Shown piece by piece: positions 4,749 to 63,538 of a stretch of 64,000 bases of DNA. Both the position numbers and the translations under genes were made by a program. Position 1 is the first letter of the stretch. Every line of letters begins with the position of its first letter. The stretch is from Heterodontus francisci (lineage: Eukaryota). The stretch spans positions 13,741,344-13,805,343 of the forward strand of contig NC_090417.1 in assembly GCF_036365525.1 (NCBI RefSeq), written 5' to 3'. Under the pieces are notes generated by a model. The model was not told where the DNA came from, searched no databases, and worked only from the letters and a program-made list of their open reading frames with translations.

Positions 4749-4988
4749 CATCTGAACCCCTCCATTAGATTCCAGTCTGTAACTCACTCCCGTGTATCCG
4801 TTATTCGATATATAAACCATCTGAACCCCTCGATTAGATTCCAGTCTGTAACTCACTCCCGGGTATCCATTATTCTACATATAAACCATCTGAACCCCTC
4901 GATTAGATTCAGTCTGTAACTCACTCCCGGGTATCCATTATTCTATATATAAACCATCCGAACCCCTCGATTAGATTCCAGTCTGTAC
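4749..4988. repeat. Tandem repeat, 68-69 bp unit, about 3.5 copies
   Basis: Unit catctgaacccctcgattagattccagtctgtaactcactcccgggtatccattattctatatataaac starts at 4749, 4818, 4887 and 4955. Confidence 0.9.
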
Positions 4989-6039
4989 CTTTGTCCCATC
5001 ATTAAGCTGTTACTCATAATTGCATCTGTTGCTGAGGCCATAACAATCACAGATTCCCCTGTCTTCCTAATATGGTCTAATGGGAGTTTTGCCATAAATG
5101 GCTTGGAGTGTCGGCACTAGAATCTGTCGTTTTTGACCCTGAGGTCAGGGACTTGTACTCGCTGCATAAGTGGCCTTGCAGAAGTGAATGTTTTCGGGAA
5201 TGGAAAACATTGGGAACACCTGTTTGCTAGACCCCACCCATTTCAGCTCAACACCAGAATGACAGCTGTTTATGTTTGAGCTTTGCTGGCAGTAGCAAAC
5301 AACGTCCACTGTGCAGATCATTCTGTCCCTGGAAAAAGACATGTTGGGAAGAGAAGTGGGAGAAACGGTAAATCTGCTTGCCATTTATCCCACTGCTGCT
5401 TCTCCTGAAGGCACTATCTCTTTCTCGACTGTGGTTGTTTGGGCACTGGCCAGCCTCCTGAACTTCACCCATCTGACTATTCTCAAGTGCGTGCCCGGAC
5501 AGTATGGTCAGCTGTTCGTCTGTGACGGCCACGACATCTGAGATCTATCCTGCACTTAAGCAACGTCCACACAAAATGGACCTTCTGCCAGTATTCACTG
5601 ATAGACATCAGGTTCGGGAAGCCTGTCTGGGTGTCTGAGAAGTTGACCTGTACTAGCTCTACATGGACAGGGCATCTAAGCTGACTCGTTTGCACATTGG
5701 GAAGTGCATGAATAAGCCAACGGAGTGTCGTAAAATGTATATTTGTTGAAGGACTTTGAGCGTTAGAGGTAATAAACACCAATGTGTGATTCCGAAGCAC
5801 AATTCTCCACACCCTGGGACAGTTGAGTTTTGAGGCCTGGGGTTGGATTGTCATTCCATCGGGAACCCGATGTCCGGAAGATTTCAGAGTTCTGACCCCT
5901 CTCTGTTTAAACTGAAACATCGCCCAGTAATTTAAGTAATGGGTATCTATTCCATTTTTAAAAATAAGTTTGGTAAACTGCCCAAGACACAGTGTATCGT
6001 ATCATGAGAAGTTGCTATCAAGGTTACATGGAATTACAC

Positions 6040-7959: not shown

Positions 7960-9290
7960 CCAACCCTGAATTTTAAGGGACTGTTGAAGGAAGGAGTTCC
8001 CCAGTTTTTGAGGTTTTGCAAAAAAGAGACTGTCGGGTCCAAGAGTGTGAAGGATGATGATCTATTAATCAAGAAATTATTGGAGCTTGGAGCAAAGGCA
8101 ATGTGATAATTGTGGGGGGGCTTCAATCTTCACAAAGACTGGACCAGTCAAATTGACAAAGGTGCTCGAGAAGGCTGGTTTGCAGACTCCTTTCATGACA
8201 CCAACAAAGAATAACTATTGTGGATCCAGCACTTTGCAATGATGCAGGGTTAATTCCGAATCTCATAGTTCAAGATCCACCAGGAAAAGGTGATCGGAAG
8301 GTCATAGAATTCCAGATTTGAAAGAGAAATACTCCAGTCCCAAACAAGAATCTGAAACTTAAACAACGCCAATCGTTAGGTATGAGAGGAGAGCTGGCGA
8401 AAGTAAATGGACTAAAAGTTATGGCGGTTAATGAACAGTGGGAAACATTGAAAGAAACAATTCTAAATATTCAGCAAAAGGGGAAAAAATAGAATCGGCA
8501 AGTAAACTCGCCAGGAATATGAAAACAGAATGTCAGAGTTTTTGCAAGTAGATAAAAATGAGAGTAGCTAAAGTTAACATTGGTCCCTTGGAGGCAAAGA
8601 CAGGAGAAATTATTATGGGAATGAGGAAACGACAGAGACAAGGAACAAATATTTTGTGACTGTCTTCACAGTAGAAGACACAAGTTACATTCCAGAAAAT
8701 AGAGTGAGGAAATCAAGGGAATGAATATGAGCAGATACAAGGACTGCAGAAAGGTGAGGAAAAAAGTAAAATCCAACAAATCCCCAGCACCTGATGACCT
8801 ACATCCGAGGGTTTGAAAGGAGGTAGCTGCAGCGATCATGGGTGCATTGATAATGATTTTCCAAAATATCCGAGGTTCTGGAGCAGTCGCAGTGGATTGG
8901 AAGCGAGCAAATGTAACACCACTATTCAAGAAAGAAGTGATAGAGAAAACAGGGAACCAAGGACAGTTAGCCTGACAGCAGTCGTTGGCAAAGTGTTGGA
9001 ATCTATGATGAAGGAATTAATAATGCACTTCGAGTATCATAGCATGATCAGACAAAGTCAACATGGTTTTGTGAAAGGGAAATCATGTTTGACAAATTTA
9101 TCAGAGTTTGTTGCGGATGTGACAAGCAGGGTACATAAAGGGGAGTCAGTAGATGTAGGATACTTGGATTTTCAAAAGGCATTCAATAAGGTGCCACACA
9201 AAAGATGAATACACATGAAAAGGGCTTGTGGAGTTGGGGGTAATATATTTGCATGGATAGAGGATTGGTTAATGGAGAGGAAGCAAAGAT
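7960..9290 (+). mobile_element. CR1 LINE ORF2 fragment (endonuclease to RT), decayed
   Basis: IIVGGFN; VSLTAVVGKVLES...SQHGFVKGKSCLTNL...[15 protein letters not shown]. Confidence 0.85.
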
Positions 9291-10975: not shown

Positions 10976-11269
10976 TATATTTTGACAACAGCATCATATG
11001 AATGTGTTAAGCATCTACAAGCTGGCTTGTCAATCAGTTTTCAAAAACAATTTGGTGTGTCCCATGATAATTCCCATTCTCGAATGAAATATTACACAAA
11101 AATTCAGGAGTAACTCAACCTAAAACTGAAGTTGTCTGCTTTGCACGCTCCCCATGAAGGTACTGAACTGAACTGGCATTGGACAACGAATGGATCCCAG
11201 AGATTGGTTAAACCAGAGGATGACAGAGATTGGACAAGTGTTAGTGCATTGTAGAACATCAATTATTGT

Positions 11270-12307
11270 AATCGAAGGAAACTCACAGGGTTTTATAACA
11301 CTCTGTGTGATCAAGGTGAAACTTGTTTAACTGGACGGGTCAAACCGTGACATCACAGAGCAAGTCTGACCCTCACACTGTACATCACAGTGAGATCAGA
11401 CATCACAATCGGTTTGTAAACTGATTTAAATTGAGGCTGGAGGCTGCTCGAGCAGTTTGAGTGAAGGAAAGGGAGCTGCACTGACCGTAACTAACTAACT
11501 GATCTGTCTCAGAGTGAATGTGGTCGGGGAGAAGATCTGAGCAGCTTCACATTTCGCAGAGATCACAAGCAATGTAAATATCATCAGCCAGCTGATCAGA
11601 CAGAAGGTTGAGAGGTTTGAAAAGTTTCTCTGAACCTGTTTATTTTGTAGCATTGTGAAAGTTAGCCGAGTATTATGATTGATATCGGGAGATGATTAGA
11701 GTTCATTTTGTTATTGGTGGATCTCCCATGGCATTGCTCACAGGTAGTCTGGAACCTGGTTAATGATGGTGACTGATTCCCCACCCTCAGCTCTCTCATT
11801 GACCACCAGCTACTCCCAACCCTCCAGCTTGGTCCTCACTCCCTGTTCTGTAAATGTTGACAACTACCGCCCATTAGCAGATCTCCCATGGCATTGCCTG
11901 GGATAGACTGGAGGGTGGGCAAGAGTCACAAATATTTACTGGGTGCCACCAGTAACAGGGGTATTAACAATCCAGACAATGGCATCACTGTCCATCACCC
12001 ATGTCCCTGTTCTGAGAGTCATAAATACCTGGAATCGAAGTAAACTCCAAGAGTTTTGTTACACTCTGTTTGATCAAGGTGAGACTTGTTTAACTGGACG
12101 GGTCAAACTGTGACATCACAGAGCAAGTCTGACCCTCACACTGAACATCACAGTGAGATCAGACATCACAATCGGTTTGTAAACTGATTTAAATTGAGGC
12201 TGGAGGCTGTACGAGCAGTTTGAGTGAAGGAAAGGGAGCTGCACTGACCGTAACCAACTGGCTGATCTGTCTCGCAGTGAAGGTGGTCGGGGAGAAGATC
12301 TGAGCAG
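11270..12307. repeat. Direct duplication of about 275 bp (11270-11544 and 12033-12307, offset 763)
   Basis: Two high-identity copies of ...gatcaaggtgaaacttgtttaactggacgggtcaa...ggggagaagatctgagcag. Confidence 0.9.
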
Positions 12308-13699
12308 TTTTGTGATGGAGAAGACAGTGAACTCAGAGAGGGGAGGGAGGAAGAAAACCTTCACAAGATGGTGTGACTGACAGAGCCAGCTATTGGAGCA
12401 AATAGGTACGTTATCAATCCCTTCCATTCTTTGGTGCTGGAGGTAACATGGTCTGTAGGTAGTCATGTCTTCCAGGGGGTGAGGGAAGGTAATGGTCCTG
12501 TTAAACAGATCATGGAAATATTGCTCGAGTTCCGTTCCGAAAAAGTTTAGATCTTATTTAAAACTGTAAAAAATCTGGAGCTCAGTCTCGGCCTCAGTCA
12601 ATGATACTGAAGGTATCGGTTAGAAACACTTGTCCCAAGTATTTCTGCTGTCCTCTGACCTCATCAATCCCTCGCTCCATGCCAAGGCCCTCCTCCCAGG
12701 TCAGATGCCTCAGGTACTGCCCTCTAAAAGCCTCTCATTGTGTCAGATAAGCTCCTGGTGCCAGTGACCCTGGATCACCTGATGGTATTGCAGCCATTCT
12801 GGAGCTTCACTCTGATTCTGGAGAAGGAATCAACTGATTGACTCCAGAATCTTTAATACTCAGCTAACATCAGAATCTGTGGCCAGGAACATCAGCAGAA
12901 AAGAGACACGTCCATAAGTAATGGTGCACTCTGAATCTGCATTCAGCATTTCCAGGTTAAATGGTTTAACTAGCAGTGGAACTAGAAAATGTCTAGAGAT
13001 GTCTCGTTACAATCCAGTGATTCTGATCTGTTTTTTTCTTCTTCTTCCAGACATACATGGTTGGTGTCAGGATGCGCAAGAGGAAATTTCCATCAAATTA
13101 CTCACAGACTGAAGAAGGTTGAGTATCAAAAGCACAAAGAACAAGTGCATCACGACACAACACAATAACAAGCAGCACATCCTGCCCCAAACCAACTCTA
13201 AATACCACAAAGGAGGGAGCAGTGTCCCTGAAATTCTCCTCACCCCATCCCTCTGTGTTCCATCCATTTCTCAGTGCCAACTCCACATCTTTTCATTTGT
13301 TGGTTTAATTTGACGGCCAATAACAACCCAGCCACTGGTCCATCTAGACACTCCTCCAACGACTGGAGGTGGTGTGAAACCGACTCTCTCTCCCTTCTGG
13401 TTTATTTCCCATTCCCACCAGGTCTATCATCCACACCAGCTCCTCCTAGATTTACTTTGACATCTATTTTTAATTGTTCATTTGGAAATTTGCCCCACAC
13501 CCTCTTCCCCATCTTAGCCCCCAGGCTGGACCTTCACATCCAGCCCTCATGTCCCCGCATCGGCATCAAGCAGTAACCCTGCTCCAACTCCAGGTTCAGT
13601 TTGATATTGCTCAGGACTAACTGCACTGGCACTGGCTAGGACCCAGTCCGTACAGTCAGCTCTGACCAATATCGGCTGGAGCTCCACCTTGGGACTGAA

Positions 13700-16400
13700 G
13701 TTGAAGGTCTCGAGGGGGAACGCTCCGGTTGTTGCCTCGATTGTGTAGAGTGGGACCAGCTGGTTCAGGCCACTCGCCTGCCAATTGCTGCCATCCCCTC
13801 CGCACAATCGGGTGAGGCCCCGGTACCAACGTGTACCGAGACCTCCCAGAATATGAGGAAGAGTCCTCCCCTGGCACCAGCTGGCCCTGAGGAGTCCATG
13901 CTGACTGGTGCCAGTATAAGGCTGGTTCCCCCAAGCGCCACAGCTAGTGTTGGTGGTCCTTCACCAGGGACATCTGTGATGCCCTCTGGTGACACCAACC
14001 CAGCCCTTGGACGTTGGTCTCCAGTTGGCGGCAGCTTATCTGGGGGACACCACCCTTGGGGGACTCGACCCCACTTGGGGTCACCTATGTTGGGGGTGAT
14101 TGCCACTTTGGTGAGAGCAGTCGCAGGTCTCCATTCACTTTTTATAGATCTGTGTCTGCCTCCTCACCTCTGTGGCCTCACCTCCAGCCACTCCCTTCAA
14201 TTCCTAAGGGGTATCTAGGTTCCAAGGGTTCTCCAATACAGGGAGGGTACGTGTGCCTCACTGGCACCTCCCCCGAGTGGCAGGGGATCATGTCTCGAGG
14301 GTTTATCTCCATCGGCCCTCGTGTTCATGAGCTCGTAGCTGATTCAGCCGCCCTCGTCTCTGTTCCCAGAGACTTAGTATTGTCAACCTTCCCTGTCGGT
14401 TGAGCCCTTGGAAGCTTCTTGGAGGCACCTCGCCTCGGAAGCCCAGTTGGGAGCCTGAGTTGGACCACGACCTCCAGTCGTTTAGGCTTTCATGTATTTA
14501 ACACAAGGGTGACCTCGAGTCTGAAACTGTGGCTTCCGGAAGTCCCTTCACTTGGAGGTTTGAGTCCATGCTTGGGGTTTTGCAAAAGGCCACAAGCATC
14601 GACCTTTGCTGGATTCTTTTTCCCTTGATAAGCGTCCTCCAGTTAAGGCCAAGTTAGACAGTATCCATAGGACCTCCAGCACCCTGCTTCACACCTTGCA
14701 GTTTACTGGTATCTGGTCAACTGCAGTCGTGAAGGTATCAGAAGGAAAGTTATCGCCTGGTTCCACCCACAAGTGGGATCTGGCGCAGCTTCCTGCAGGG
14801 TTTGGCACATCTCCGCCAATTCCCCAGTGGATCTTGCAACACTGATTAGTATGGCCAAGCACCTTGGGCTTTCTTCAGGTACTGCAGATGCCCCTTGGTG
14901 CCGAGGCCTTCTTTGGTGAGCAAGTGGAGGAGCTGCTGCGGCAGAACCTTCAGGCATTCCCCAATTGGCATTTAAGATGTGGACACTGCTCACTCCAGAA
15001 CTTAGTCTGTCGGCCCCTTCCATCAACCCACCATTCCACTCACATACACATACACTCACTCTCACCAATCCACTCACCTCCAACAGCCTTTCCCAGGCTG
15101 TATCCGGAACGGAATGTCCTTTGTACCATGCTAGCTCCCTGCATTGCAGATTAGGACCTGGAATTCAGGCAGCTAGCGACACTTCATCTTTGATACCCTG
15201 TCCGGCTGCACCCCCCCAAGCTGTGATCCTGCCTTTGCCAATTGCCGGAGGGTGGATCACTCTTGGGTTAACGAGACCAGAAGTAGTGAGTATCCTCTGA
15301 ATTGGCAGCTTGAGCCTCCATGTTTCTCACAATGTGGTTTGCTTTGATGCTCAGAGGAACCATCTACCAGTGGCCATTCTGGCAGGTGACACCATGGTCT
15401 TTTAGTATTGGGACTGAGAGTCAGGGATAGTTCTCCAGAAGAGAACTGTTGGGGAGATTTCTCCAGGTGAAACTTCTGGATAACTATCCCCACTGCCAGT
15501 AATGTTTCCACAGCTCGCCTTTGTCACAGCATCTGAACTTGAGCTGATGCTTTTGGGGAACACTGTCTTCTCCAGGTTCTTCAGCTAATGCTTTGACAAA
15601 TGGGTGATGTTGGGGGAGGTCACATTCAGGATGAATGGGCTTCCAGGCCAGTGGGCGTGCTTGAGCTCACTTGGCATTTCAACAGGCTCGGTCAGGGTGT
15701 GAACGGTATATTAGGACAGTGTGCACTTTCAGACTCGGGACGGCGGGGTAAGTCAGTGTGTCTGCAGACAGACAATATGACAGTAGTCCGGTATGTCTAC
15801 AGGGTGGGACTCCCTCCTGGGTCCCTCTGTCAAAGCGATGCGTTGCTTCCCATTGGTGCTTGTAGGACGGGGTGACACTTTTGCTGCCACATTTGGCCGG
15901 GGTGAACAACACAACAGTCGACACACTCAGCTGCTGTGTAGTTCACCTTCCGAGTGGATGATCCACACTGAGGTGGTCCAGAATATCTTCAGGACTTGGC
16001 GGGGGGTGGTTACCAGATCGATCGACTTGCTCGTATCACCGGACAATCCCCAATCTGCTGGGGGACCTCAGGCAGTCATGGTGGAGACTGGACTGTCTGT
16101 GGTTCTTTCGTTTCGAGATTCTGTTGCTCAGGGTAGCCTGATCTCCAGGATGCTCGGGAAATTTACAGCAGATGGTGGTTCTGGTTAACCTTTCATTGAC
16201 CTCACAAACCGTCCTCCTACATCCTGGTGTTGAATACTGCCGGTCTGATTTCAGGAGCCCACGGAGAAAGCCAAGTTGTTTGGAGATTGAAGACGACCCT
16301 ACTTTTAGGAAGGGAAACATCAGTTTTCATTCCAGCGTCCTCCACACACGGCTGGACACTGTCCAACTGGTACTCAGAGTGAGAAGGGTGGAACCTGCAT
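13700..16400 (+). mobile_element. Decayed DIRS-like (tyrosine-recombinase) retrotransposon
   Basis: Motifs in DIRS order: gag end (LQMPLGAEAFFGEQVEELL), RNase H (WASRPVGVLEL; CLQTDNMTVVRYVYRVG), methyltransferase-like (SEWMIHTEVVQNIFRTW...IDLLVSPDN; LISRMLGKF), YR start (RRKPS). RT mostly deleted. Confidence 0.7.
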
Positions 16401-17809
16401 GGGAACAGACTCCGGCTCCCAGGACAAGTTGATGAAAGTGAGTGTTATTCATGGGAGCCAGCGCCAGAACCAAACTGGAAGCTGAAGGAGATTTGGGTCT
16501 TTCCAGCTTCTGATTGACGGTCTGGCTGTTCAGATAGAATGCCCATCAGATTAGGGTATAGCAGCAATGTGGCACTCATGGTTGTGATGCTCACTTTTAT
16601 CATGTCTGTCCTTGGTCTCTTTAGCCCCTGTTCACAGACAGGCCTCTCCACCCTCCTCGTCCTCAGCACTACTTGGTTCGTCGGCAGCAGTGCATCGAGA
16701 ATGTCTGAATGATGATCAGCGCCCTTGGAAGCTGATCCTTTGCAAGCTGCTCCCTTGTAAGGTTCTCTTCATTCTCCGAGTGACGTGGCTTTTTCCACCC
16801 ACCTGGGTGCCCCTTGGGAATTGGAGGGGGTGTTTGGTATGTAGTTTCCTCGTTCTGGGTTGTCTTTGGGTGTCAACAAGCTGAGTTCTGGGGTGTGCTA
16901 AAATTGAACACAGCACAGGAGCCGGGGAGGGACGGAGGGAGGGGAAAAGCATGTGGGCGTGCCCTCCACGGATAAGGCATTGAAAAAATGTCTTAAAAGG
17001 GAGGTCACGCCTTACGAAATTTTCCCCAGGGAAATTGTGCCGATGCGTCCCGATAATTAGATCCACATTCCCCCCCATTTGGCCGTCAATATTTCAGAGC
17101 TGATGTTCCATCCAAACATTGCTGGCTATGTAACTCAGTTCCAATCGACTGAGAGCCCAGCACAGACTAAAGGAATGGCATCAGTTCCCAACAAATTCAA
17201 AGATGTCACAGTTAGGACTTTTTTGAGAAAGGATTGGGGAAAGTTTTCGTTCAAGTTGGAACGACACAGAAGTGGGAACCCTGGACAGCCCATCAACTGG
17301 CTTCAAGTCAGTACAGAATGCTGGGCTTGTAGCTGCTATTGCAGAGCTAGAGTGCAGATGGTTGGAGACTAGGCTCTGAGGCAGTGTGTTCAGATAGTGT
17401 CTGGGAAAGCTATTGTCTTGGAAAGCAGTGGCTGAAGAGGGCTAGAGTGATCTCCTGGACTTGTTTCGATCGCCTAAGGGGGTCGGAGAGGAATTTCCCA
17501 GATTTTTTTCCCGAATTGGCCTGGGTTTTTCTGTCTGGTTTTTTGCCTCTCTCAGGAGATCACATGGTCTAGGGTGGGGTGGGGAGTCAATCTGTGTTGT
17601 GATGACAAGGCATCGCCGTTGTGTGGGACGTGCTGGACGGAGCAGACAGGAACCTGTCCATCTGTCAATTCTCTCGATCAAGTCACGTTAATTCAACGAC
17701 TTCAATGTGAAATCTGGAAATAAACGTGAATTCAAATTGGACAAACTTTCTGTGTTTTTTTCTGATTTGTGCGCGGGCTAGAATAAGGACCAGAAAGGGA
17801 TCAGTAACA

Positions 17810-19149: not shown

Positions 19150-20270
19150 AACATATTTATATCATATCGTACAACATCCCAAGGTGTTTCACAGGAGTGA
19201 TAGCAAAAAATATCAGACACTGAGTCACAAAAAGAGATATTGGGGCAAGTGACCAAAATCTTGGTCAAAGAAGTCAGTTTTCAGGAGAGACTAAAAGGAG
19301 GAAAGTGAGATGGAGAGGCGCAGAGGGTTTCGGGAGGATATTCCAGAGCTTAGGGCCCAGGCAGCTGAAGGCACAGACACCAATGGTGGATCAATTAAAA
19401 TCGGGGATGTTGAAGAGGCCAGAATTAGAGGAGTGCAGATATCTGGGAGGGTTGTGGGGCAAGAGGAGATTACAGAGATAGGGAGGGGAGAGGCCATGGA
19501 GGCATTTGATAACAAGGCTGTGAATTTTTAAATCGAGACATTATTTGACTGGGAGCCAGCGTAGGTCAGTGAGCACAGGGGTGATATGGGAATGGGACTT
19601 GGAGCAGCAGAGTTTTGGATGACCTCAAATTTCCGGAGGGTTGTATATAAGGGACCAACCAGGAGTGAGTTGGAGCTGTCAAGTGTAGAGGTAAGGTTTG
19701 GGGAAGGGCAGTGGAAGAGGGTTTCAGTAGCAGATGAGCTGAGACGAGCAGAGTCCAACAATGTTCGGGTGCTCGAAATAGACGGCATTAATCTCCAGGC
19801 ACTGATGTGTGGTGGGAATCTCATCTTGGGATCAAACATGACATCAAAGTCGTGAACAGTCCCGTTTAATGTCAGACTGTTGCCAGGGAGAGGGACGGAG
19901 TCAGTACCTTGGGAATGGAGTTTGGAGCAGGGACTAAAAACAATGGCTTCAGTCTTCCCAATATTTAATCGGAGGAAATTTCTGCTCATCCAGTATTGGG
20001 TGTCAGATAAGCAGCCTGATAATTTAGCAACAACAGAGGGGTCGAGGGAGGTGGTGGTGAGGTAGAGCTGGGTGTCATCAGCGTACATGTGAAAACCAAC
20101 GCTGTGCTTTTGGATGATGTTGTCAACGGGCAGGAAGTTGATGAGAAATGGGAGGGAGCCAAGGATAGATCCTTAGGGAATACCAGAGGTAACTGTGCAG
20201 GAGCAGGAAGAGATGCCATTGCAAGTGATTGTCTGGCTAAAATTAGCTAAGAATGGAACAGGTGGGAACA
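19150..20270 (-). mobile_element. L2-clade LINE RT and 3' fragment
   Basis: MYADDTQLYL...WMSRNFLRLNIGKTEAIVF. Confidence 0.85.
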
Positions 20271-21039: not shown

Positions 21040-22950
21040 GTGCAAAGTCGGGAGTTTGATGCAGGTGGGAATTTAGCAGAGAGTATGAAGGAGCTGCTGC
21101 TTTTTGTACTTGATGAGTGCTCTTCTGTTGTTTTAGAGCTTGGAGACTGTAACTCATCTCACTAAATGAATAACGCATTGACTAATGAAATGAATAAGAT
21201 TGGACAGACATGGCAGGAATGGTGTTGTGCCTTGACTGCAACATGTGGGAGTCTGCAGAATGCATTGTTACCCCAGACAGCCATATCTGCTGTTCGTGTC
21301 TGCAGCTCGAGCAACTTTGGCTTAGAGTTACTGAACTGGTGACTGAGTTGCAGACATTGCGGACATCAGGGAGCGGAGATTTGCCTGAACACTTTGTTCT
21401 GGGAGGCAGTCACACCCCTTACGTTTGGGAGAACCTGAGGTGATCAATGGTCTGGGACAAAAAGCTGTGAATGCAAGTCCGGCAGCTACGGAGATCCAGA
21501 ATGTAGTGATCAATGAGCCTCATCCCTTGACTTTGACCAACGGTGCAGGACACCATTCAAGTGTGGGGAGTGAAAAGGACTAATCGGGAACAGTATAGTT
21601 AGGGGGATAGATACTTTTCCCTGCAGCTGCGACCGGGAGCTCCGAAGGTTGTGTTGCCTGCTGGGCGCCAGGGTTAAGGACGTCTCCTCAGGGCTGGAGA
21701 TGAACTTGGAGTGGGAGGGTGAGAATCCAGTTGATGTGGTCCACATACCAATGACCAACTCGGAGTAGATTGTATCAGTGTTTACCGAGGAAGAAGAATC
21801 TAACAATCTAATCTTTACCAAGGAAGAAGCCGAGAGAGTCGAGGCAATGGATAAGGTAAAAATTGAGAGGAATGAGGTACTGGAAAGGCTGGATATGCTT
21901 AGCATAGATAAGTCACCGAGTCTGGATGGCTTGCATCCCAGGTTGTTCAAGGAAGTGGGGATGGAGATAGTGGAAGAGATTTCCATAATCTTCCAAATTT
22001 CCCTGGATATGGGTGAGGTGCCATTGGATTGGAGATTGGCAAATGTGACACCCTTCTTCAAGAAAGGGGGTAAGGACATTCCTCACAACTACAGGCTGGT
22101 TAGTTGAACATGAGTAGTGGGCAAAGTTTTGGAAAGAACAATGAAGGGTTCAAAAAAACAGGTCCTTGGAGAGGTTTCAGTTAATTAAGGATAGCTAACA
22201 TGAATTTGTACAAGGCAGGTTATGCTCGAATCATCGAATTGAATTTGTTGATGAAGGAACAGAGAAGGTTGATGAAGGGAATGCAGTGGATGTTATCTGT
22301 ATGAATTTGAGGAAAACATTCGATAACGTACACCATAAAAGGCTGGTTAACAGAAGTGAGGCCTGTGGAACAGGAGGGTCTGTGTCCAATTGGATAAAAA
22401 ATTGCCTTAAGGACAGAATGGTTGTTTTCAGGAGGATGGTAGACAGTGGTGTTCTCCAAGGGTCAGTGCTGGGACCACTGCTTTTTTTTTGGACCTTGGA
22501 ATAGGGTAGAATTTCAAAATTTGCTGCTGATACCAGGAGTGGCCAAGAGTAAGGATAATATGAACTGCCTGCAGCAGGACAGAGATAGGCTCAGAGAATG
22601 GGCAGACAGGTGGCAGATGGAATTTAATACAGTCAAACGTGAGGTGATGCATTTTGGCCGAAGAGATCGGGTGAGACAATAAAGACTTCATGGCACAGTT
22701 CTAAAGAGTGTGCAGAAACAGAGGGACCTGCGGGTGCACGTGCATCCATCTCTGAAGGTGACAGAACATAATCGAAAGAGTGGTTAGGAAAGCATATGGG
22801 ATCTTGGGCTTCATAAATAGAGGCATGGAGTACAGAAGCAGGGATATTATGCTGAACCTTTATAAAGCTCTGGTTAGTCCACAATGAGACTATTGTGTCC
22901 AGTTCTGGTCGCCACACCTTTGGAAAAATGTCGGAGGTGCTAGAAAAGAC
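21040..22950 (+). mobile_element. CR1 LINE with 5' end and ORF1 joined to the RT region (internal deletion)
   Basis: ORF1 zinc finger and zipper CLDCNMW...ICCSCLQLEQLWLRVTEL, esterase IGNSIVRG...CCLLGARVKDV; then ORF2 DKSPSLDGLHPRL...GSVLGPLLF. Confidence 0.85.
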
Positions 22951-23287: not shown

Positions 23288-23339
23288 TATATATATATAT
23301 ATATATATATATGTATAATATATATATATACACACACAC
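23288..23339. repeat. (TA)n/(CA)n microsatellite
   Basis: Direct reading. Confidence 0.9.
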
Positions 23340-26300
23340 TAAATTTGAAATGTTTAATACAAAAACAGGCACATATAGGGCAACACATGGCAGCAGGTAT
23401 CACTTGAACTGAATGTTTAATACTTCACGCAGACACACAGAAAGAAGCATTAATAAAACAAACAATTTAATCAACCACATCACCTAAATAAAGACTGCAT
23501 TCATCTGTTCTGTAGTCTAACTGGTTCTAAAGTCATGCTGTGCCTGGCCAACGAGAGGTTTAAACATTATTGCAGTTTCCTTCATTTTAATACATTAAAT
23601 ATGCAAGACTGTTGCATTTCTGAATGTGCTTCTTTTGGCCTGTCATGTACAACTCAACGTGTCAGACTAGAAATTTAGCTTATTGCTTTGAAAGCCGTCA
23701 TCTTCAGTATCAGAGCTCACGCTGGGGAGTTCACTCACCTGCTCGGTCCTGCATATGTTAGACACTCGTGGGCTCTTAGGATTTTAGTTCCCACCTTCCC
23801 AGCTTCTGGTCTCCCACACCTCTCTCCGTCTGCCTGTCCCCGTACCCCTCTCCTCGGCTCCCACTCTCTGTGGCAGCACTTGTGATCTAGTCAACGGCAT
23901 TACAATCGCTTGGCAGCCACAGTGACTGATGGGTGTCCTATACATACGTCACAAATGTTACTGGATGTAAAGCACATTTTACACGAGTAGATATTGTCAA
24001 CTGAGCTGTTGCATCCCAAAACTGAATTTATTAGGTCACCAATGTGATTGATGCCAGGAAGATTTTTTTTTTAAGTTTGGCAATTCACGTAGAAGGAAAT
24101 TTTGAAAAAAAATTTGGATGAGCAATGTGTGAGATGATCCAAATTGCACGAACAGGATGCCATACTTGTTTAAGGAGCTGTGCCCAGGTGGCACAAGGCT
24201 TTGTGTCTGCTAATGTCGTGAGTTAAAATTCTGCTCTGGAAGTTGCCATTCTGAACCACATTGAGCAGGAAGACGCTGAGTCGAAGTTCTAGTCTCTCCC
24301 AGCAGGAGGGAGTAAAGCACAGAGTACTGATAAAATTCTTGTGGCCAGCTGTAATGGGCTTTGCAGCCAGCTGTGACTTCAGCGGGGTCAGTCCAGGCGG
24401 ATTTAAAAAAAAAAGAGGCGAATCTTATCCAAGAATATTCCCAGAAAGTAAGAAAAAAGCTGCATCAACATTTTTAATTTTCATCTCCCCTCAAAAGCAT
24501 TCCAGTTAGTTTGGAAGCTTTATTAACTGGATGCAAGTCTGGGAGTCGGAGCTGGGAAAGTCATTCAGTGTCAGCATCTCACAGACCTGGCTCAGAGGCA
24601 AAGTAAAATATCCCTCAACAATTCATCTTAATCCCAAACTCTGAACAGCACTTCATATTGTCCCCACACTTGCTGTCCATGTATCCTCTTCCAACTGTGA
24701 GACTTAAATCAGACGGACAAACTCCAACATCTGCAGAGAGGACCCTCTCTTTATAACCTGCCCCAGCTCCTCAGAGTTACCAGGTGTCATTCCCTATCTT
24801 TAAAGCATCGGCTACATGAGTTAAATTTGTGGCTGTGCTATTTTAACTCATTTATAGCTCTACAGTCGTGTTAAGATATCAGGAACAGGTATTTTAATTT
24901 TGTCAAACAACAGGCCAAGAAGGAGCAAGATGTTGAACCTCCCTTCAGTCAGACAGACACAACACTTACTCAGAAGGTCTTCATCTAATGAATGCCGTAC
25001 AACAGTGCATGGACATTATTTAAGGAATTGAAACACATCACAGAGTTTCCACAGAACAGAAAAGAACATTGCATTCCAAAACCTTGAATTAACACAATCC
25101 CTGAAAGCTCCCTCACGCCCCACACCATTTTTCAATTTAGCTTTTGAAGAAATACCCCCTGAATTTAAAAAAAAACTGAAAGCCATTGACTACTGCTGCT
25201 CTGATTCTGGTTGGCATCTCTCTTGTCGACGTTGGGGTAGGAACAGTGCACTGGAAGCAGGGAGGCAGAGTGAGGGAAAGAATCACTTTAGTGCAAGCCA
25301 CGGGGCCTGGTGACCAGGTACCACAGGAAGTGACGAGGAAGCCAATGTGTTTCGGGTTGTTAGGCCGATATGCAAAAGTCTTAATTCCTGCGGGCAGGAG
25401 CCAATATCCTTCATTATGACAGAGTTGCAGTGAGATTCTGCAGAGAATAGTTAATTATTTTTTCTAATTGAGCATTGCATTGCCATTATCACAAGTGCTT
25501 GCTAAAACTTTTCCTGCATTAATAGCCCAGGTGACAGTAACAGCTTTGGCACTTAGCTCATTTACTTCTGTTTACTGATGGTGTTAGCAGTGGTAATCCA
25601 GCAAGGCCAGTTGCCAGAGTGATCTTCAGAACATTACTTGGTCTAAAGGGTTAATGTGTCCCAGCTACCCGACAGCCGAATTTCCAGATGTGATGCTGAA
25701 ACAGCTCATGTGTCGAGATGCTGCACTACCAATGCAAACAGGATGAAATTTAGCTTGAATTTGGCAGGGCCATGGGATTCTCATCGTTCGAATCAAACAA
25801 GGACTTCAGTTCAATTGTAAAGGGAAGTTTGTCTTTTTAGGCAGTCATTTATACCAGTTTTTTTGAAATAATAGACCAAATCCTAAACAGTCGAACAGCT
25901 TTGTCCTTCATCGAGCTTACAAAAATATACAAGCTGTTTGAAGAACTGATTTTTTTTTTTAACATCACTGATTTTTCAATGGACTTTTTTTTAAAGATTC
26001 TCTCAAAGTTTTCAGGTTTTTGTTGAAAGGTTCAATTTTGACACAGGGATACTGTAGAATTTTCTGGTCTACACATGTGCAGCCACTTGGTCCTGGCCAC
26101 TGTGTCCGTAGGCTTCCACTCTCAAACTAAGCACAAAACTTGATTCAATTATGTTCTGTAGACTTTTAACAATGACTCTTCAATCAAAAGCTAACAATAG
26201 AAAAATTCACAGTCGATGAAAAAATACTGGGAACGTTTTCACGCTGAATATATTTGTGCTGTCATGCAGAAATCCTGCAACAGTAGACAACTGAAAGGAT

Positions 26301-28073
26301 TCAAAGGGAAGGCTACTGCAATACATTTGGGGTTCTAAACCTGCAAGCCCTCGACCAGTTTGCACGGCACAAGAGAAGCTACGAGCTCAGAATTTGTTCT
26401 CCCGCTCAAATCCTTGCTCAGATCACGGCCTGCACTAATTTCCCTGGGCGCTCGCTCCCCATGCAAACAGGGATTGACTCCAAGTCTAGCAACTGGCCAG
26501 AAGCATTCTGAGAATTCTCCAGGTTACAGATCTTGAGAATTCCCTTTGACGAGTCCTACACTCTTGAGCAATTTTAGAAACTTGACCTTTGCTTGATCAG
26601 GGCATTTTAAAAATGATCTCCAGGCAAATGAGCTGGTCTCAGTCAGAATATACATGGAATTCAATAAGCCTGTCATTTGATGCCAAGACCATGTTTTCAT
26701 AAAAGGCATTTTTATTTTCTATTCATTCCAACCAGACATAATTTCTCTCAACAGCGGGAACTACCAGGAAAAAGTCTGGGAAATACTTTACTGTCCTGGC
26801 CCGAATTTTATTTCAGTGAAATTGCCAAATTGATGCTGACTTGTCGACTCCGAGGCACCAGATCCGAGTTGAAACTATCCCAAACTAACTTTATGTAGCA
26901 AGATATCTGCCACTCAACCAAGAGAAATCACAGCATTCTGGGATGGTCTGAAATCCGAGTTTGAGATTTGGCTGGACAATGTCCGACCAGCTGGTTCACA
27001 CTTCAAAGGGAAAAGGGAGCCACACTGACGCTTGTGGCTTTGTCCAAGTGGTTTCAAGATGTTGAGGTGCATCCGCAGTGCAACCTAAGCAATAACGCCG
27101 TTGGTTTACAGGTTGAACATTAATGGCCCTGCCAATAACCAGTCACCCCCTTGCCACTATCACTGAACACTGGCATTCCTGTTGCTGTGACCTGAATTAA
27201 TCAGTTCTATTTCATCAATTTCAAAGCAGGACCTCTCCAAATCAATAAAGTTGTCGTGGCTATCTCAAATGAGTGAAAGTGAACTGGAAAAATAACTGTT
27301 CTGAAAGAAACTTGCACCAGACTGAATCAATACCTGAGTGGTTCGCACTCGTACTGTCCCATCACACACCCACTGACCAATCCCTCCTCACAGCACCCGA
27401 TCCCAACTCATCCACCCAAGAGAAAGCAACTTTCAACCAAGTTCTTAACTCTGGCACAGTGATTCTTCAGACAGCTGCTCCCAATAATTTGCAACCTTCT
27501 TCTGCACTCACGTACACCAAGTCTTTCATCACTTTCACATGCACCTAACAATGCAGCTCTGTAATACAGAACTTTAAAAAAAAAACGCTACTGGAGTGCT
27601 GAAAAGAGAGAAAATAACACAAGCAAAAAGATGCTCATTAATGGCACAGGATATGACAACTTAAAACATGTTTGTCTCCTTTCATTCCCCACTGAACAAA
27701 AGCGCATGAAACTGTGCAGTGAAGTAGACTCCACAGCAGGTCAATCCGAAGGTGTGTGCACTTAACTGTTCAGAAGTGTACCCTGCCTAGTTTACACAAG
27801 GATTGTCGACACGGCATTATCAGAATTGTTCTGGCAGCAATGGCAAAGCCAAAGACAGAAAACTGACCGACGATGGGGATCAACAGAGGAGTTCAGCAAA
27901 ACGGGCCAGGTGACAAGGCAGCTCACGAAAAATATTACTTGGAAGAACGGAATTTCTCGCTCATCCAGCTTTTGTTGGATATCTAATGAAATGATCACTT
28001 GCACAGTCTCCCTGGACTATTTTCCGTCACACAATATTTTCCACCGCTGTCCTGTTTGCTAAGTGGGATTTTC

Positions 28074-28141
28074 CTACACGGCTATTACATCAAATTCTAT
28101 ATCTAATCCACCCTAAACATGTCCGAGTACACCTGACCGCA
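28074..28141. repeat. Junction copy: right end + AAA + left end of the 29172-29408 unit
   Basis: 28074-28117 matches 29365-29408 at 42/44; 28115-28141 matches 29172-29198 at 26/27. Confidence 0.9.
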
Positions 28142-28911
28142 TAATTGAAAAAAAATGTGGCAGTACCTGCCTTTTGGCACTGCACGGTCCTGGAGATGCT
28201 CCCCAAGAAATGGACACCATCCCCACACCACAGTGACCTCCCACTTTGAAGGACGTTGTGAGGTGTACAGCCAAGCAGAGGCTTGCCTGCTTTTGTGCAC
28301 CCCACCCCCACTTCAATGATTAGAGAGAGTTAATCTGATGGCAGTTCTGCAGCCTGTTCTGAACACACTCAGAAGCACGAGACTCCACTGCCCGCCTTTG
28401 GCACAGCATTGCTAATTCAAACCTCCCTGTCCGTAATATATAGTTGAGCTGACTGACAACGTATTAAGATTAATTGAGCACAGATACAGGCCAATTGTAG
28501 AAAATCGGTACGGAGTTAACAGATCCCATCTCGGCTGCAATAGATGCATAACAGTTCATCTCATTGTCCTTGGGTTAGAGGACAGTAGGTTAGCCAGAGT
28601 TCCTGGTAACTGTCCAGTATGTCTGTATGGACACTGGGGATGGAGGGCTGAATCGGCCTTTGCTGTGATGCCCTTTGTAGCAGAGTAGTGCTGACACCGT
28701 CCACTCCTGCCGATGAAGAACAGCCACGAGGCTGAGGTACCAGAGGAAGCCTGCAGCTCTTGGAACCAGCTCAGAAAAGGAATCACTGACTCCCCAAAAG
28801 GTGGACTGAACAAACTCAATTTGCAGTAGTTCTCTTGCCAAACCTTAACATGATGCCTTAGTTAAGATTACAGATAATATCTAAATACTACTCAAGTGTA
28901 TTTACTATTCC

Positions 28912-28915
<4 letters not shown>

Positions 28916-28950
<35 letters not shown>

Positions 28951-28961
28951 ATATATATATA
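28916..28961. repeat. (TA)n microsatellite
   Basis: Direct reading. Confidence 0.9.
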
Positions 28962-29171
28962 GATACTATAGTTCTGTCAAAGTTTACATTTGCCTGACTA
29001 ATTGATGGAGATAGTGTGGTGTGTTTCATGGAGATATTTGTCTTAAAAGGGACCGGATCACCCTTGAAAATTTCAACAGAAACAGACAATGATTTTAGCA
29101 GTGGTACAATGTCACCAAGTTTAAATAATTTGCGATAAACGACATGCCATCTGGGGAATTCTGTCCCTCCG

Positions 29172-29408
29172 AAACATGTCCGAGTACACCTTACCGCAGA
29201 AGATTCTCGAATCTCCGCTCTCCCTGTTGTAATCGCTACTTGTTTCTACTAGTCTCTTCTATCTACTCGAATACAGCCAGTGTAAACTTCATATTCTAAG
29301 CTTCTTCAGCTAGCTCAGGAAGCCCTACTACGAATGCAAATGTAAAACTGCATGTTTTTCAAAACTACACGGCCATGACATCAAATTCTATATCTAATCC
29401 ACCCTAAA
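29172..29408. other. 237-bp AAA-bounded non-coding unit whose joined ends recur at 28074-28141
   Basis: Terminal matches as listed for 28074-28141; all six reading frames contain stops. Confidence 0.75.
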
Positions 29409-29917
29409 GCATACATTCGGGCTCATGAGCAAGTAACTGTGGAAAGTCAGTCAGACCCATCATACGAGACTCCTGTGCTGGTGCACAATAGGCTCAGATT
29501 GGTATGCTACTGGACGAAAATCCATGATTTATGCACAGTTCAGATTCAGCCTCACAACTGCTCAATTGCTTTGCATTTCAAACAGCAATGGTGAATCTTT
29601 TGTTTTAAAAAAGCTATTTGTGTGTATGTGGGTTTGATGGTTAATCATGGACTCAGCACATCAGTGGCCATCACAGCTTTTAACCTTCTAACAACTGGCT
29701 GAGAGCCCATGATTAAACTCAAGCCTACTTAGTAATTATTGCGTCAACCAGTACTTTGCTACTTTGCTTTGTGTCTGAAGGGATTTGGACCTCTTGATTA
29801 CATAAAGAAATTGCTGGTAGGATGCTAGCTTGGACGCACTGTGTTTGAGAGGAAGGTCACAGGCTGGATCAATCCTCAGGCTGTTTCGCTGCAACCGCTT
29901 CAGTGAACTCCCCAGTC

Positions 29918-30041
29918 CTATGCCCCAGCCGGGAGTGCACCTTTTTGCATCAGGTTGGCCTTCAGGCTCTTGTATATCTGTAGCTGTTGGTCCAGGCGGA
30001 GGGCTAGTAGTTGCTGCAGCAGTTTACTGGGATTTGGGCCC
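29918..30041 (-). CDS. CDS2: CDS2 exon 13 coding part ([40 protein letters not shown])
   Basis: AG acceptor after a pyrimidine tract; TAG stop at 29918-29920. Confidence 0.94.
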
Positions 30042-33000
30042 CTATCAAGAAAGAGAGAGATAGAGAGACATATCAACACAGACCCATTCGAAACTCCACT
30101 TCTAAAGGAGTTCTTTTCAAGCTAGACTCACCTAGAGGTGGAAAACGGCCCACTGGGAGAAGAAAAAGACTTGCATATATAGTGCCTTTCACAGGATTTC
30201 CCTCAGCGCTTTACAGCCAATGAATTCCTTCTGAATTATAGTCACTGCTGTAATGTAGACAACGCAGCAACCAATTCGCAAACAGCAATGTGAAAATGAT
30301 CAGTTAATCTGCTTTTTTAAGTGATGTTGTTTGAGGAATAAACACTGGTGAGAACTCCCTTCTGTTATTTAAAATAGTGCCATGCGATCTTTTATTTTCA
30401 GCTCGGAGAGCAGACGGAGCCTCGGTTTAATGTCTTACCCAAAAGGTGGCCTCAGCACTCCGTCGGTTTGCACTGGGAGTGTCAGCTGAGATTTTTGTGC
30501 TCAAGTCTCCAGAGTGGGACTTGAGCCCACATCCTTCTGACTCGAGGGAAGAGTGCAACCAACGGATTCATGGCTGACACCACAGGAGCTCGCAAAGGGA
30601 AACTGCACACATCCCATGATTCATCGTCCACTGATGGGCATGGAATGCAGATGCTCCATTCTGACAGTTGTTACTGCTAGGTATGTTTCAAGCGCAAGCA
30701 GTCGGCCATTGGAAAATTTACCCTCCAATTTATCCAGGCAGTTGCACAGTGCAGAAACACCAACTTGCATTGATACAGGACCTTTATCGTAGGAAAATGC
30801 TCCAAGGAGTTTCACAGGCGCGTAAACAGATGTCTAGAATTGACACGAGCTAACAAAGGTGATATTAAGAGAGGCACCTGAATCATTAAGTAAGGGAGCG
30901 ATCTGATGAAGAGGAGGGGTTTAGGGAAGGGAATTCCAGGGCTTGGGCCCTTGATGGCTGAAGGCACACTCTCAAACAGCAGGGTCAAGAATAAGAGCGG
31001 CACAGTGGCGTAGTGGTTAGCACCGCAGCCTCACAGCTCCAGGGACCCGGGTTCGATTCTGGGTACTGCCTGTGCGGTGTTTGCAAGTTCTCCCTGTGAC
31101 CGCGTGGGTTTTCGCCGGGTGCTCCGGTTTCCTCCCACAGCCAAAGACTTGCAGGTAAATTGGCCATTGTAAATTGCCCCTAGTGTAGGTAGGTGGTAGG
31201 GAATATGGGATTACTGCAGGGTTAATATAAATGGGTGGTTGTTGGTCGGCACAGACTCGGTGGGCTGAAGAGCCTGTTTCAGTGCTGTATCTCTAAATAA
31301 AAAAATAAATAAATAAAGAGGTCAGAGTTGGAGAAAGCGAGATCTCGAAGGATGAAAGCCAGAAGAGGTTACAGAATTAGGCAGGGGCAAGACATAAAGG
31401 ACAGTAACAACTTAGTCATTGCACCCACAACCACTCAACTGACAGCACTGAAAGATGACAGTCCTTTCTCTCAGCACTTCATGGTCGAAGTATGCTTTTG
31501 TTCCACACAGCAATCATGTCCGTTTGAGCACTGGGGTGTTACATAATTGCAAGTTAAATAGATTTACCTAGCGCCTTATCTCAAAACGCCTCACAGCCAA
31601 TGAATTCCCTTTAGAAGGTTAAACCTACCTACTTTGAGTGCTCATTGTCACTACAAGGAGCTGTAGCTCAGAATCAGTGGAAGTCTTTTACCTGATAAAG
31701 CTGGCAATGTAGACATTCACAAAGGTCGCCATAAGATATTGGCAATCGAAGCGGTCCATAATCCCACCATGTCCGGGTATGGTGTCAGCAAAGTCCTGGG
31801 AAGAAAAAAAAAATGGCCAATTCGATCACGCCAATATCACATTTTCCTTGCTGTTACCAGCCATCTGCTGGAAGAATAAGTCATCGGAAGAGCAAGCGCT
31901 GACTGAAATTGTGCAAATGTCTCAGTTTGCTTTTTAAATCGTGAACGACCTATAAAATACATTGTTGTGTTCAAAATTGCTGCAGCAGTCATCGTAGTCC
32001 CTAACTAAATCAATGACTTCTAGCAGGGAGACCTTTGTGAGATCCCCTCCTGCAGATGTATCTTTCAGCCATCTTAACCAAGACTGACTGGCTCCTCCGA
32101 AAGGGTTAGGGATTATTCGAGGAAAAAAGTGGGGTTTTGATAATACAGTGCTATGGAACCATTGATGGGAGCACTCTTGGTTTTCCACGTGGCCATTCCA
32201 ACCCCTGATAGTGGGGCGGATTTCATTCAGCAGTTTTTCACAACATTCTTAAGAAAAGATGCTTTCAGTGTCCAGGTAAACACAAGGCACCTTGAAGAAG
32301 ATAACAAAGAGGAGCAGGAGTTGGCCATGTGACCATACGCTGTGCCATTCAGTAAGATCATGGCAGGTCTTCCACTTCAACTCCCCTTTCCCGCCCTGCC
32401 CCATGCTCCTTCATCCCCTTAATGTCCCAAAAGTTTCAATGATCTCAGTCTTGAATATACTGAAAGACTGAGACTCACAGCCTTCTGGGGGAGAGAATTC
32501 CAAAGATTCACAACTCTCAGTCAAGAAATTTCTCCTCATCTCAGTCCAAAATGGCCGACCCCTTATCCTGTGACTGTGACCCCTCGTTCTCAACTCACCA
32601 GGCAGGGGAAATACCCGAGAAGCATTTATCCTGTCAAGCCCCTTAAGAATTTTATATGTTTCAACAAAATCACCTTTCATCTTCTGAACTCTGGAGACTT
32701 TATAAAATGTTTTGGGAACAGCAGTTGCAATGGAACAGTGTGTACGGTTGAAAATACATGTTACACATACGAGTCAGTACCAGTTACAAACAAGCGTTGC
32801 ATCTGACAGAGATAACATCACAAGTGGTGCCCAGGAACCATAAAGTAGAGCTGTGGGAACTTGTGTTAAGCACCAAGGTGGTGAAATTCTTCCCACTGCT
32901 AATTTTACCAATTGTCAGATTAGTAGTTAACAACAAACCCCACTTTGTACTCGGTTCAACTTCTGTACTTATCGAGATTATCGACAGGAAGGATTTCACC

Positions 33001-57453: not shown

Positions 57454-57624
57454 TGTGGCTCTCCCGCCGCTCGGCGTCCTCCGCGCTTCACTGCCGCTGA
57501 CAATCCACTGGAGAGCGGGGACTCGAGAGGCTCGAAAACTCGCCGCCGCTCAGCAACCGCCGCAGCGCCTCGAACCGAGCAACAACCCTCGCGAGAGCTC
57601 CGGACCGGGACCCTCCCAGCGCAT

Positions 57625-58048
57625 GGGGGCGGTGCAGAGCGCTGGTTCCTGGCGGTCCTCCCAGCGCTAGGGGGCGCTGGTTCCTGGTCCTCCCAGCGCT
57701 AGGGGGGCGCTGGTTCCTGGTCCTCCCAGCACTGAAACCCTGGTTCCTGGTCCTCCCAGCGCTAGGGGGCGCTGGTTCCTGGTCCTCCCAGCAATGAAAC
57801 CCTGGTTCCTGTTCCTCCCAGCGCTAGGGGGCGATGGTTCCTGGCCGTTCCAGCACTGAAACCCTGGTTCCTGGTCCTCCCGGCGCAAGGTGGCGATGGT
57901 TCCTGGTCCTCCCAGCACTGAAACCCTGGTTCCTGTTCCTCCCAGCGCTAGGGGGCGATGGTTCCTGGCCGTTCCAGCACTGAAACCCTGGTTCCTGGTC
58001 CTCCCAGCGCTTGGGGGCGGTGCAGAGCGCTGGTTCCTGGTCCTCCAG
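57625..58048. repeat. GC-rich minisatellite (about 30 bp, core TGGTTCCTGGTCCTCCCAGC)
   Basis: About 13 units with alternating GCTAGGGGGCGC and ACTGAAACCC spacers. Confidence 0.92.

Positions 58049-58826: not shown

Positions 58827-63538
<4,712 letters not shown>

What the first reader, a model, noticed from the sequence alone, without database searches (positions are those of the whole stretch)
28074..29408. A 237-bp AAA-bounded unit and a separate copy of its circle junction inside the CDS2 3'UTR
Seen: the unit 29172-29408 begins AAAcatgtccgagtacaccttaccgca and ends ctacacggccatgacatcaaattctatatctaatccaccctAAA. About 1 kb to the left, 28074-28141 reads right end + a single shared AAA + left end (42/44 and 26/27 identity), and homology stops abruptly on both sides. 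The arms are therefore permuted: A-core-B at one site and B...A at the other. This is the sequence formed if the unit circularised through its AAA core (234-bp circle; empty site ctccg-AAA-gcatac). The unit is non-coding, CpG-rich relative to its surroundings, and matches none of the repeats I recognise here. Established: tyrosine-recombinase retroelements (DIRS, Ngaro) integrate circles through a short trinucleotide core without a TSD and carry a copy of their junction (ICR or split direct repeats). Inference: this may be a non-autonomous circle-forming element with an external attP-like or template copy, an eccDNA reinsertion, or a junction-spanning template for rearrangement carried on the CDS2 mRNA. 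A double template-switch duplication is the mundane alternative.
Basis: partly seen in the sequence, partly recalled or inferred. Interest (0 to 1): 0.85.

Follow-up and report, generated by a model that had tools for sequence, protein, structure and literature searches.

The report
Inserted DNA circle with copied junction
A short piece of foreign-looking DNA in the tail of a fish gene seems to have entered as a small circle, and a 68-base copy of its joined ends lies 1 kb away; this is most likely a dead scar of insertion and DNA repair, not a working device.

Summary
The permuted arms are real: 42/44 and 26/27 identity, sharing AAA, with no third copy in 64 kb. One correction: homology does not stop abruptly. 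The unit's two ends resemble each other over about 15 bp (11/15), matched by only 2 of 3367 other AAA sites (post hoc test). Unit and junction copy are compositionally foreign, and the foreign stretch ends near the AAA termini. Best reading (0.5): a young 234-bp circle, or one turn of a tandem donor, entered through AAA at a look-alike site; the 68-bp copy is a dead repair patch from the same sequence. The likeliest donor is a solo-AB-type remnant of a tyrosine-recombinase retroelement (about 0.3 overall), but family tests fail: the copy is direct, not inverted as in DIRS1, lies outside the termini, and no recombinase ORF was found. No RNA structure, ribozyme, protein, phage, plasmid or prokaryotic match. 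Main rival (0.25): linear insertion with a decayed target duplication plus template switching. Copy number and the empty site stayed unchecked, since no animal genome was searchable. A functional template on the mRNA is unsupported (0.04).

The parts
29172..29408 (.). 237-bp AAA-bounded unit (TTT-bounded on the CDS2 sense strand); young foreign insertion, one turn of a 234-bp circle plus the shared AAA
   Evidence: G 13%, CpG o/e 0.94, TpA o/e 1.0, 13 CTA
29172..29198 (+). arm A (27 bp), left end of the unit
   Evidence: 26/27 to 28115-28141
29199..29364 (.). 166-bp interior, single copy in the window, no coding or RNA-family match
29365..29408 (+). arm B (44 bp), right end of the unit
   Evidence: 42/44 to 28074-28117
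28074..28141 (+). 68-bp junction copy B-AAA-A, direct orientation, foreign composition, no target duplication of 5 bp or more
29164..29171 (+). left flank resembling the end of arm B (5/8 beyond the AAA): left half of a look-alike target, or of a decayed duplication
29409..29412 (+). right flank GCAT, resembling the start of arm A (CAT) with one extra base
28142..29171 (.). 1030-bp spacer of host-like composition with a (TA)n tract at 28916-28970; probably resident UTR, not part of the element
   Evidence: CpG o/e 0.30, CTA 5/kb over 28142-28910
29918..30041 (-). last coding exon of CDS2 (phosphatidate cytidylyltransferase); context
   Evidence: 13 of 44 candidates, 63-77% identity to bony-fish proteins with PF01148; splice acceptor and stop read
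26807..26812 (-). first AATAAA downstream of the CDS2 stop; context for the inferred 3'UTR

Best explanation
Step 1 (inferred): a 234-bp piece of foreign DNA existed as a circle, or as one turn of a head-to-tail donor, whose natural sequence runs B-AAA-A. It entered the CDS2 3' region by one crossover or one priming event inside AAA, at a host site already resembling the junction at 11 of 15 positions, so no true target duplication arose. A tyrosine recombinase acting in trans, or mismatch-tolerant end joining that copies exactly one turn, would both give this product. Step 2 (inferred): a break or stalled fork 1.0-1.3 kb away was patched with 68 nt copied across the same junction, either from the circle or from the integrated unit by slipping between its similar ends. 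Both pieces have since drifted (3 differences in 68) and do nothing. The likeliest donor is a solo AB-type or other non-autonomous remnant of a tyrosine-recombinase element (about 0.3 overall); a satellite monomer or another small circle accounts for the rest. Shown: geometry, end similarity, foreign composition. Not shown: donor identity, copy number, empty site, any circle.
For: Foreign composition: under order-3 and order-4 Markov models only 0.56% of 237-nt windows score as low, these being the 57.2-57.6 kb CpG island and windows over the unit; 0 of 151 neighbouring UTR windows do. With a model trained on the interior only, both arms and the junction copy score foreign or neutral and all four 100-nt flanks score host-like; 5-95% boundary intervals cover or come within a few bases of the AAA termini (left 29092-29196, right 29368-29452 across four settings). 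Youth: 8 CpG against 3.1 expected at the host ratio (P 0.013), 21 TpA against 12 (P 0.011); nine other repeats or copies were tabulated and the seven unrelated ones have CpG o/e 0.11-0.54. End similarity: 2 of 3367 other AAA sites pass the same test; 4 differences in 15 are unlikely at the copy's divergence (P 0.0035), so the similarity probably predates insertion. Patch junctions carry microhomology: left 5-mer, chance 1.3% (535 of 42654), right 2-mer, chance 13%. Precedent, from passages read: trinucleotide circular junction without target duplication, AAA junction with TTT ends in Xenopus DIRS (PMC3266345); solo AB repeats of Ngaro (PMC8547959); SIRE equals A2+B2 of VIPER (PMC6681497); templated insertions of about 50-300 bp and capture of transposon cDNA at breaks (PMC11724301); mismatched microhomology in Pol theta joining (PMC13015775 section 3).
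Against: No second dispersed copy, parent element or recombinase ORF was found. The 11/15 test was defined after seeing the sequence. At 10% divergence, 4 differences in 15 has P 0.056, so a decayed duplication is not excluded. The cusum break fits the left end (29170) but its minimum fell at 29534, not 29408; with an order-1 foreign model arm A scores neutral (-0.6 to -0.1 bits). No clear 11-13 bp dyad flanks the core (best 6/13), unlike typical recombinase sites (PMC3212892). The right-hand microhomology of the patch is at chance level. All three CpGs are kept in both copies while three other positions differ, which neutral decay explains less neatly (small numbers).
Confidence: 0.5

Rival explanations
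1. A linear fragment inserted with an 11-15 bp target-site duplication that later decayed; the 68-bp copy then arose by three local template switches (into B, back across the duplication into A, home again). No circle ever existed.
For: All three switch points show some microhomology. Another local duplication, 281 bp at 93%, lies at 11267/12030. Needs no special enzyme.
Against: The duplication would be 27% diverged while the copy is 4% diverged (P 0.0035) and the unit keeps undepleted CpG and TpA. No poly-A tail or A6 run in the unit.
Confidence: 0.25
2. 28074-29408 is one 1.3-kb split-direct-repeat element. On the minus strand the order is A1, B1, B2, A2, with 44-bp terminal repeats.
For: That order was reported for one putative VIPER copy in Bodo saltans, A 83 bp and B 57 bp (PMC6681497).
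Against: The 1030-bp spacer is host-like and has no ORF match; the standard order is A1-ORFs-B1A2B2.
Confidence: 0.06
3. The unit is a solo LTR read TGT...CA (29177-29411) and the copy is a tandem or two-LTR junction CA|TG.
For: The junction reads AAACA|TGTCC.
Against: Needs an extra G in the right end and a mismatched 4-bp duplication; no AATAAA, ATTAAA or TATA box on either strand; does not explain the 5/8 upstream similarity.
Confidence: 0.05
4. A working cassette: the junction copy on the CDS2 transcript splints or recombines with the unit's ends so that 234-bp circles are made, as the internal B1A2 repeat does for Ngaro/PAT elements.
For: [quoted passage not shown]
Against: Three differences have accumulated, whereas SDR pairs of intact elements are 96-100% identical in most rows seen; no fold signal; one copy in the window; no enzyme gene nearby.
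Confidence: 0.04
5. A retrozyme or viroid-like circular RNA monomer, reverse transcribed with a partial second copy.
For: Size fits; non-LTR retrozymes of 51-972 bp occur in fishes including one chondrichthyan (bioRxiv 10.64898/2026.07.22.740005).
Against: No hammerhead: one CUGANGA, with zero stem II pairs; circular fold z +0.05 and +0.68; none of 5 weak Rfam matches touches the unit or copy.
Confidence: 0.02
6. Assembly artefact.
For: Reads could not be examined.
Against: Three differences between the copies, unique flanks on all four sides, no N in the window.
Confidence: 0.03

Closest known systems
Solo AB repeats of Ngaro (PMC8547959, passages) and SIRE of VIPER (PMC6681497, passages)
   Same: Short non-coding unit running from the element's left end to its right end, whose B|A junction exists elsewhere in direct orientation.
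   Different: No parent A1-ORFs-B1A2B2 element or further copy found; the junction copy is only 68 bp and sits alone 1 kb away.
DIRS1-like retrotransposons (PMC3266345, PMC9210276, PMC7192593, passages)
   Same: TTT ends, AAA junction shared once, no target duplication, junction halves of a few tens of bases.
   Different: Their ICR is inverted and internal and they have inverted terminal repeats and ORFs; here the copy is direct and external with neither.
Crypton non-autonomous elements (PMC3212892, passages)
   Same: Circle intermediate, short terminal direct repeats, no inverted repeats.
   Different: Repeats are 4-6 bp in fungal and oomycete forms and absent in the animal forms described; no junction copy; no parent found.
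Small eccDNA and templated insertions at breaks (PMC11879418, PMC11724301, passages; PMC13015775, abstract and section 3)
   Same: Circles under 400 bp formed at microhomology; 50-300 bp insertions with short, sometimes mismatched microhomology.
   Different: Same-locus two-piece insertions in direct orientation were very rare in the yeast data; here the source segment itself looks foreign.

Membership tests
DIRS1-like | same trinucleotide (often NTT) at both ends, shared once at the circular junction | tested here: met
   TTT at both ends on the minus strand, one AAA in the copy; definition
DIRS1-like | junction copy (ICR) inverse-complementary to the termini and inside the element | tested here: not met
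   copy is direct and 1030 bp outside
DIRS1-like | inverted terminal repeats of about 100-150 bp | tested here: not met
   best end-to-end inverted match 12 nt, not terminal; a weak central inverted match p 0.04
Ngaro/PAT/VIPER (SDR) | junction copy in direct orientation | tested here: met
Ngaro/PAT/VIPER (SDR) | order A1-ORFs-B1A2B2 | tested here: not met
   order is B A ... A core B; no further arm in the window
Ngaro/PAT/VIPER (SDR) | gag, RT/RNase H and tyrosine recombinase ORFs | tested here: not met
   0 Pfam families in six frames of 27-30 kb; 85 of 173 ORFs of 11-33 kb scanned, one RVT_1 at 22199-22504 and no recombinase
solo AB / SIRE-like remnant | homology to both ends of an autonomous element and dispersed copies in the genome | not testable with these tools
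   no animal genome collection; whale shark repeat FASTA unreadable
Crypton | 4-6 bp terminal direct repeats, no inverted repeats | tested here: inconclusive
   3 bp exact inside an 11/15 imperfect repeat
tyrosine recombinase site | 11-13 bp inverted arms around a 6-8 bp spacer | tested here: not met
   best 6/13; definition
non-LTR retrozyme | type I hammerhead ribozyme | tested here: not met
satellite monomer | tandem arrays in the genome | not testable with these tools
   none in 22-32 kb; internal sub-repeat not significant, 29 of 400 shuffles
solo LTR | TG...CA ends, 4-6 bp duplication, poly-A signal | tested here: not met
   ends need an indel, duplication mismatched, no signal

The most novel reading that the evidence does not exclude
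The unit is a member of an undescribed family of 234-bp mini-circles mobilised in trans by a tyrosine-recombinase retroelement, and the junction copy, carried downstream on the host CDS2 mRNA instead of inside the element, still templates closure of the circle: a split-direct-repeat system dispersed over a host 3'UTR. The weaker form, a multi-copy mini-element family with a non-functional patch, has about 0.25 probability and would deserve about 0.45.
Probability: 0.04. Interest if true: 0.8.

Novelty: new member of a known kind. Interest (0 to 1): 0.27.

Why it matters
As a fossil it is a rare case where a germ-line insertion and the sequence of its presumed circular intermediate lie side by side, so donor junction and target can be compared base by base, and one genome search would decide between circle entry and template switching. 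If the unit is multi-copy it would define a small mobile element that repeat libraries may have missed. Only if circles are still made from this locus would it be a new kind of system.

Tried and rejected
Longer decayed copy around the junction: a tempting collinear alignment left of 28074 was not significant (p 0.36-0.56 against 780 window segments; right side p 0.59-0.98). Coding remnant: six frames gave 0 Pfam and 0 PHROGs families; one frame against 1.84 billion representatives gave 5 hits, all summed weak repeats with best domains of 6.7-10.2 bits; two further frames gave 0 of 114 and 0 of 29 candidates (each limited in length range); the other three frames were not searched in the large sets. 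Mitochondrial origin: suggested by low G and high CTA, but no Pfam match in any frame; control region and rRNA could not be excluded. Phage and plasmid origin: 7 and 2 records, all E 3-9. Prokaryotic origin: 0 matches for a 22-mer, 6 for an 18-mer against about 17 expected, none extending past 22 bp. Structured RNA: z between 0 and +1.1. Internal periodicity: best lag p 0.06; the internal repeat looked significant against mononucleotide shuffles (0 of 60) but not against dinucleotide shuffles (29 of 400) or the window (26 of 270). Spacer as an insertion with a 27-38 bp duplication: rejected because it is host-like. In print: none of six 15-16 nt motifs occurs in the full-text library; topic searches listed no description of this locus, judged from listings. 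Supplements are not covered by those searches.

Full report
Observation. The right 44 bp of the unit recur at 28074-28117 (42/44) and the left 27 bp at 28115-28141 (26/27), overlapping on one AAA. The match scores 79 against at most 30 in 100 shuffles, and no third copy exists in the window. The claim of abrupt ends needs correction. The 11 bases ending in the left AAA match the 11 ending in the right AAA at 8 positions, and CAT follows both, with one extra G on the right. Only 2 of 3367 other AAA sites on both strands pass that test, which was defined after the fact.

Context. The window is from a fish-like vertebrate. CDS2 runs on the minus strand (Pfam CTP_transf_1 exon; last exon 63-77% identical to bony-fish proteins, 13 of 44 candidates), head to head with PCNA. 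That it is a shark rests on my recall of the SINE and CR1 repeats and comes from no call; one search listed no shark. Both features lie between the stop and the first AATAAA, so the 3'UTR placement is likely but inferred.

The unit is foreign. It has 13% G, CpG o/e 0.94, TpA o/e 1.0 and 13 CTA in 237 nt. Under order-3 and order-4 models of the window it scores lower than all 151 neighbouring UTR windows, and only the CpG island scores lower; at orders 1 and 2, 4% and 1.3% of UTR windows are as low. Trained on the interior alone, a two-state score puts the boundaries around the AAA termini, scores the junction copy as foreign and all four flanks as host. Against this, the cusum minimum fell at 29534 and arm A is neutral under the order-1 model. 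The agreement still means the arms are probably real ends of an insertion, not arbitrary switch points. Undepleted CpG and TpA (P 0.013 and 0.011) suggest it is young.

Mechanism. If young, the 4 differences in 15 between its end regions are hard to get by decay of a target duplication (P 0.0035 at the copy's divergence, 0.056 at 10%). They follow directly if a donor with the junction sequence crossed over inside AAA with a host site that merely resembled it. This step is inferred. The 68-bp copy has no duplication of its own and shows a 5-nt microhomology on the left (chance 1.3%) and a chance-level one on the right (13%), as expected of a repair patch. Sequence alone cannot tell whether the patch was copied from a free circle or from the integrated unit by slippage.

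What the donor is not. No Rfam family touches it, it has no fold signal as a circle on either strand and no hammerhead. No protein homology was found, nor any phage, plasmid or prokaryotic match above chance. No tandem array or significant sub-repeat was found.

Comparison with known systems. It works like the entry step of tyrosine-recombinase elements: a shared trinucleotide and no duplication, with AAA junctions and TTT ends in Xenopus DIRS (PMC3266345 and PMC9210276, passages). It is not a DIRS1 element, because the ICR there is inverted and internal and ITRs are present; here neither holds. The direct orientation fits split direct repeats, but the order A1-ORFs-B1A2B2 (PMC8547959, PMC4157794, passages) and the ORFs are missing (85 of 173 ORFs scanned). 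The unit alone fits a solo AB remnant, known for Ngaro and as SIRE for VIPER (PMC6681497, passages); potential Ngaro sequences were reported in whale shark (PMC8455134, passages; its summary table, does not list them separately; PMC4350176, passages gave general background only). That identity needs a genome search that was not possible: no animal genome was on hand, the whale shark library was unreadable, bioRxiv supplements are closed, and viral and metagenomic contigs were closed. Small circles formed at microhomology, capture of cDNA at breaks and mismatched microhomology are all established (PMC11879418 and PMC11724301, passages; PMC13015775, abstract and section 3), though same-locus direct two-piece insertions were very rare in yeast.

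Verdict. A real and tidy scar: circle-type entry of a young 234-bp unit plus a dead patch (0.5), or linear insertion plus template switching (0.25). I do not file it under DIRS1, Ngaro or Crypton. A functional template on the mRNA is not excluded but has no support (0.04). None of six motifs from the arms occurs in the searched full texts. Interest 0.27.

Noticed in passing
window 11267-11547 and 12030-12310: 281-bp direct repeat, 93% identical, 763 bp apart, 20 mismatches; no obvious TG...CA ends.
   Followed up: partly
window 29208, 29268, 29331, 29394: CGAAT, CGAAT, CGAAT, CTAAT spaced 60, 63 and 63 bp inside the unit; the internal repeat is not significant.
   Followed up: partly
window 29300-29323: 24-bp imperfect palindrome near the middle of the unit.
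   Followed up: partly
window 28384-28409 and 15507-15532: 23/26 match between the spacer and a GC-rich region, E 0.004.
   Followed up: partly
window 23330-30160: About 6.8 kb free of interspersed repeats shared within the window, consistent with a long CDS2 3'UTR; further AATAAA at 26711, 24519, 24027, 23244.
   Followed up: no
window 57200-57600 and 58827-63000: CpG island between head-to-head CDS2 and PCNA; tandem arrays at 56680-57300 and 57612-58046.
   Followed up: no
window 4749-4990: Tandem array with a 69-bp period.
   Followed up: no
window 8798-9208, 19528-20172, 22199-22504: Reverse transcriptase fragments (Pfam RVT_1), CR1/L2-like by recall.
   Followed up: no
window 13500-17100: GC-richer stretch with many long stop-free frames and no Pfam match above threshold; possibly a decayed transposon.
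   Followed up: partly
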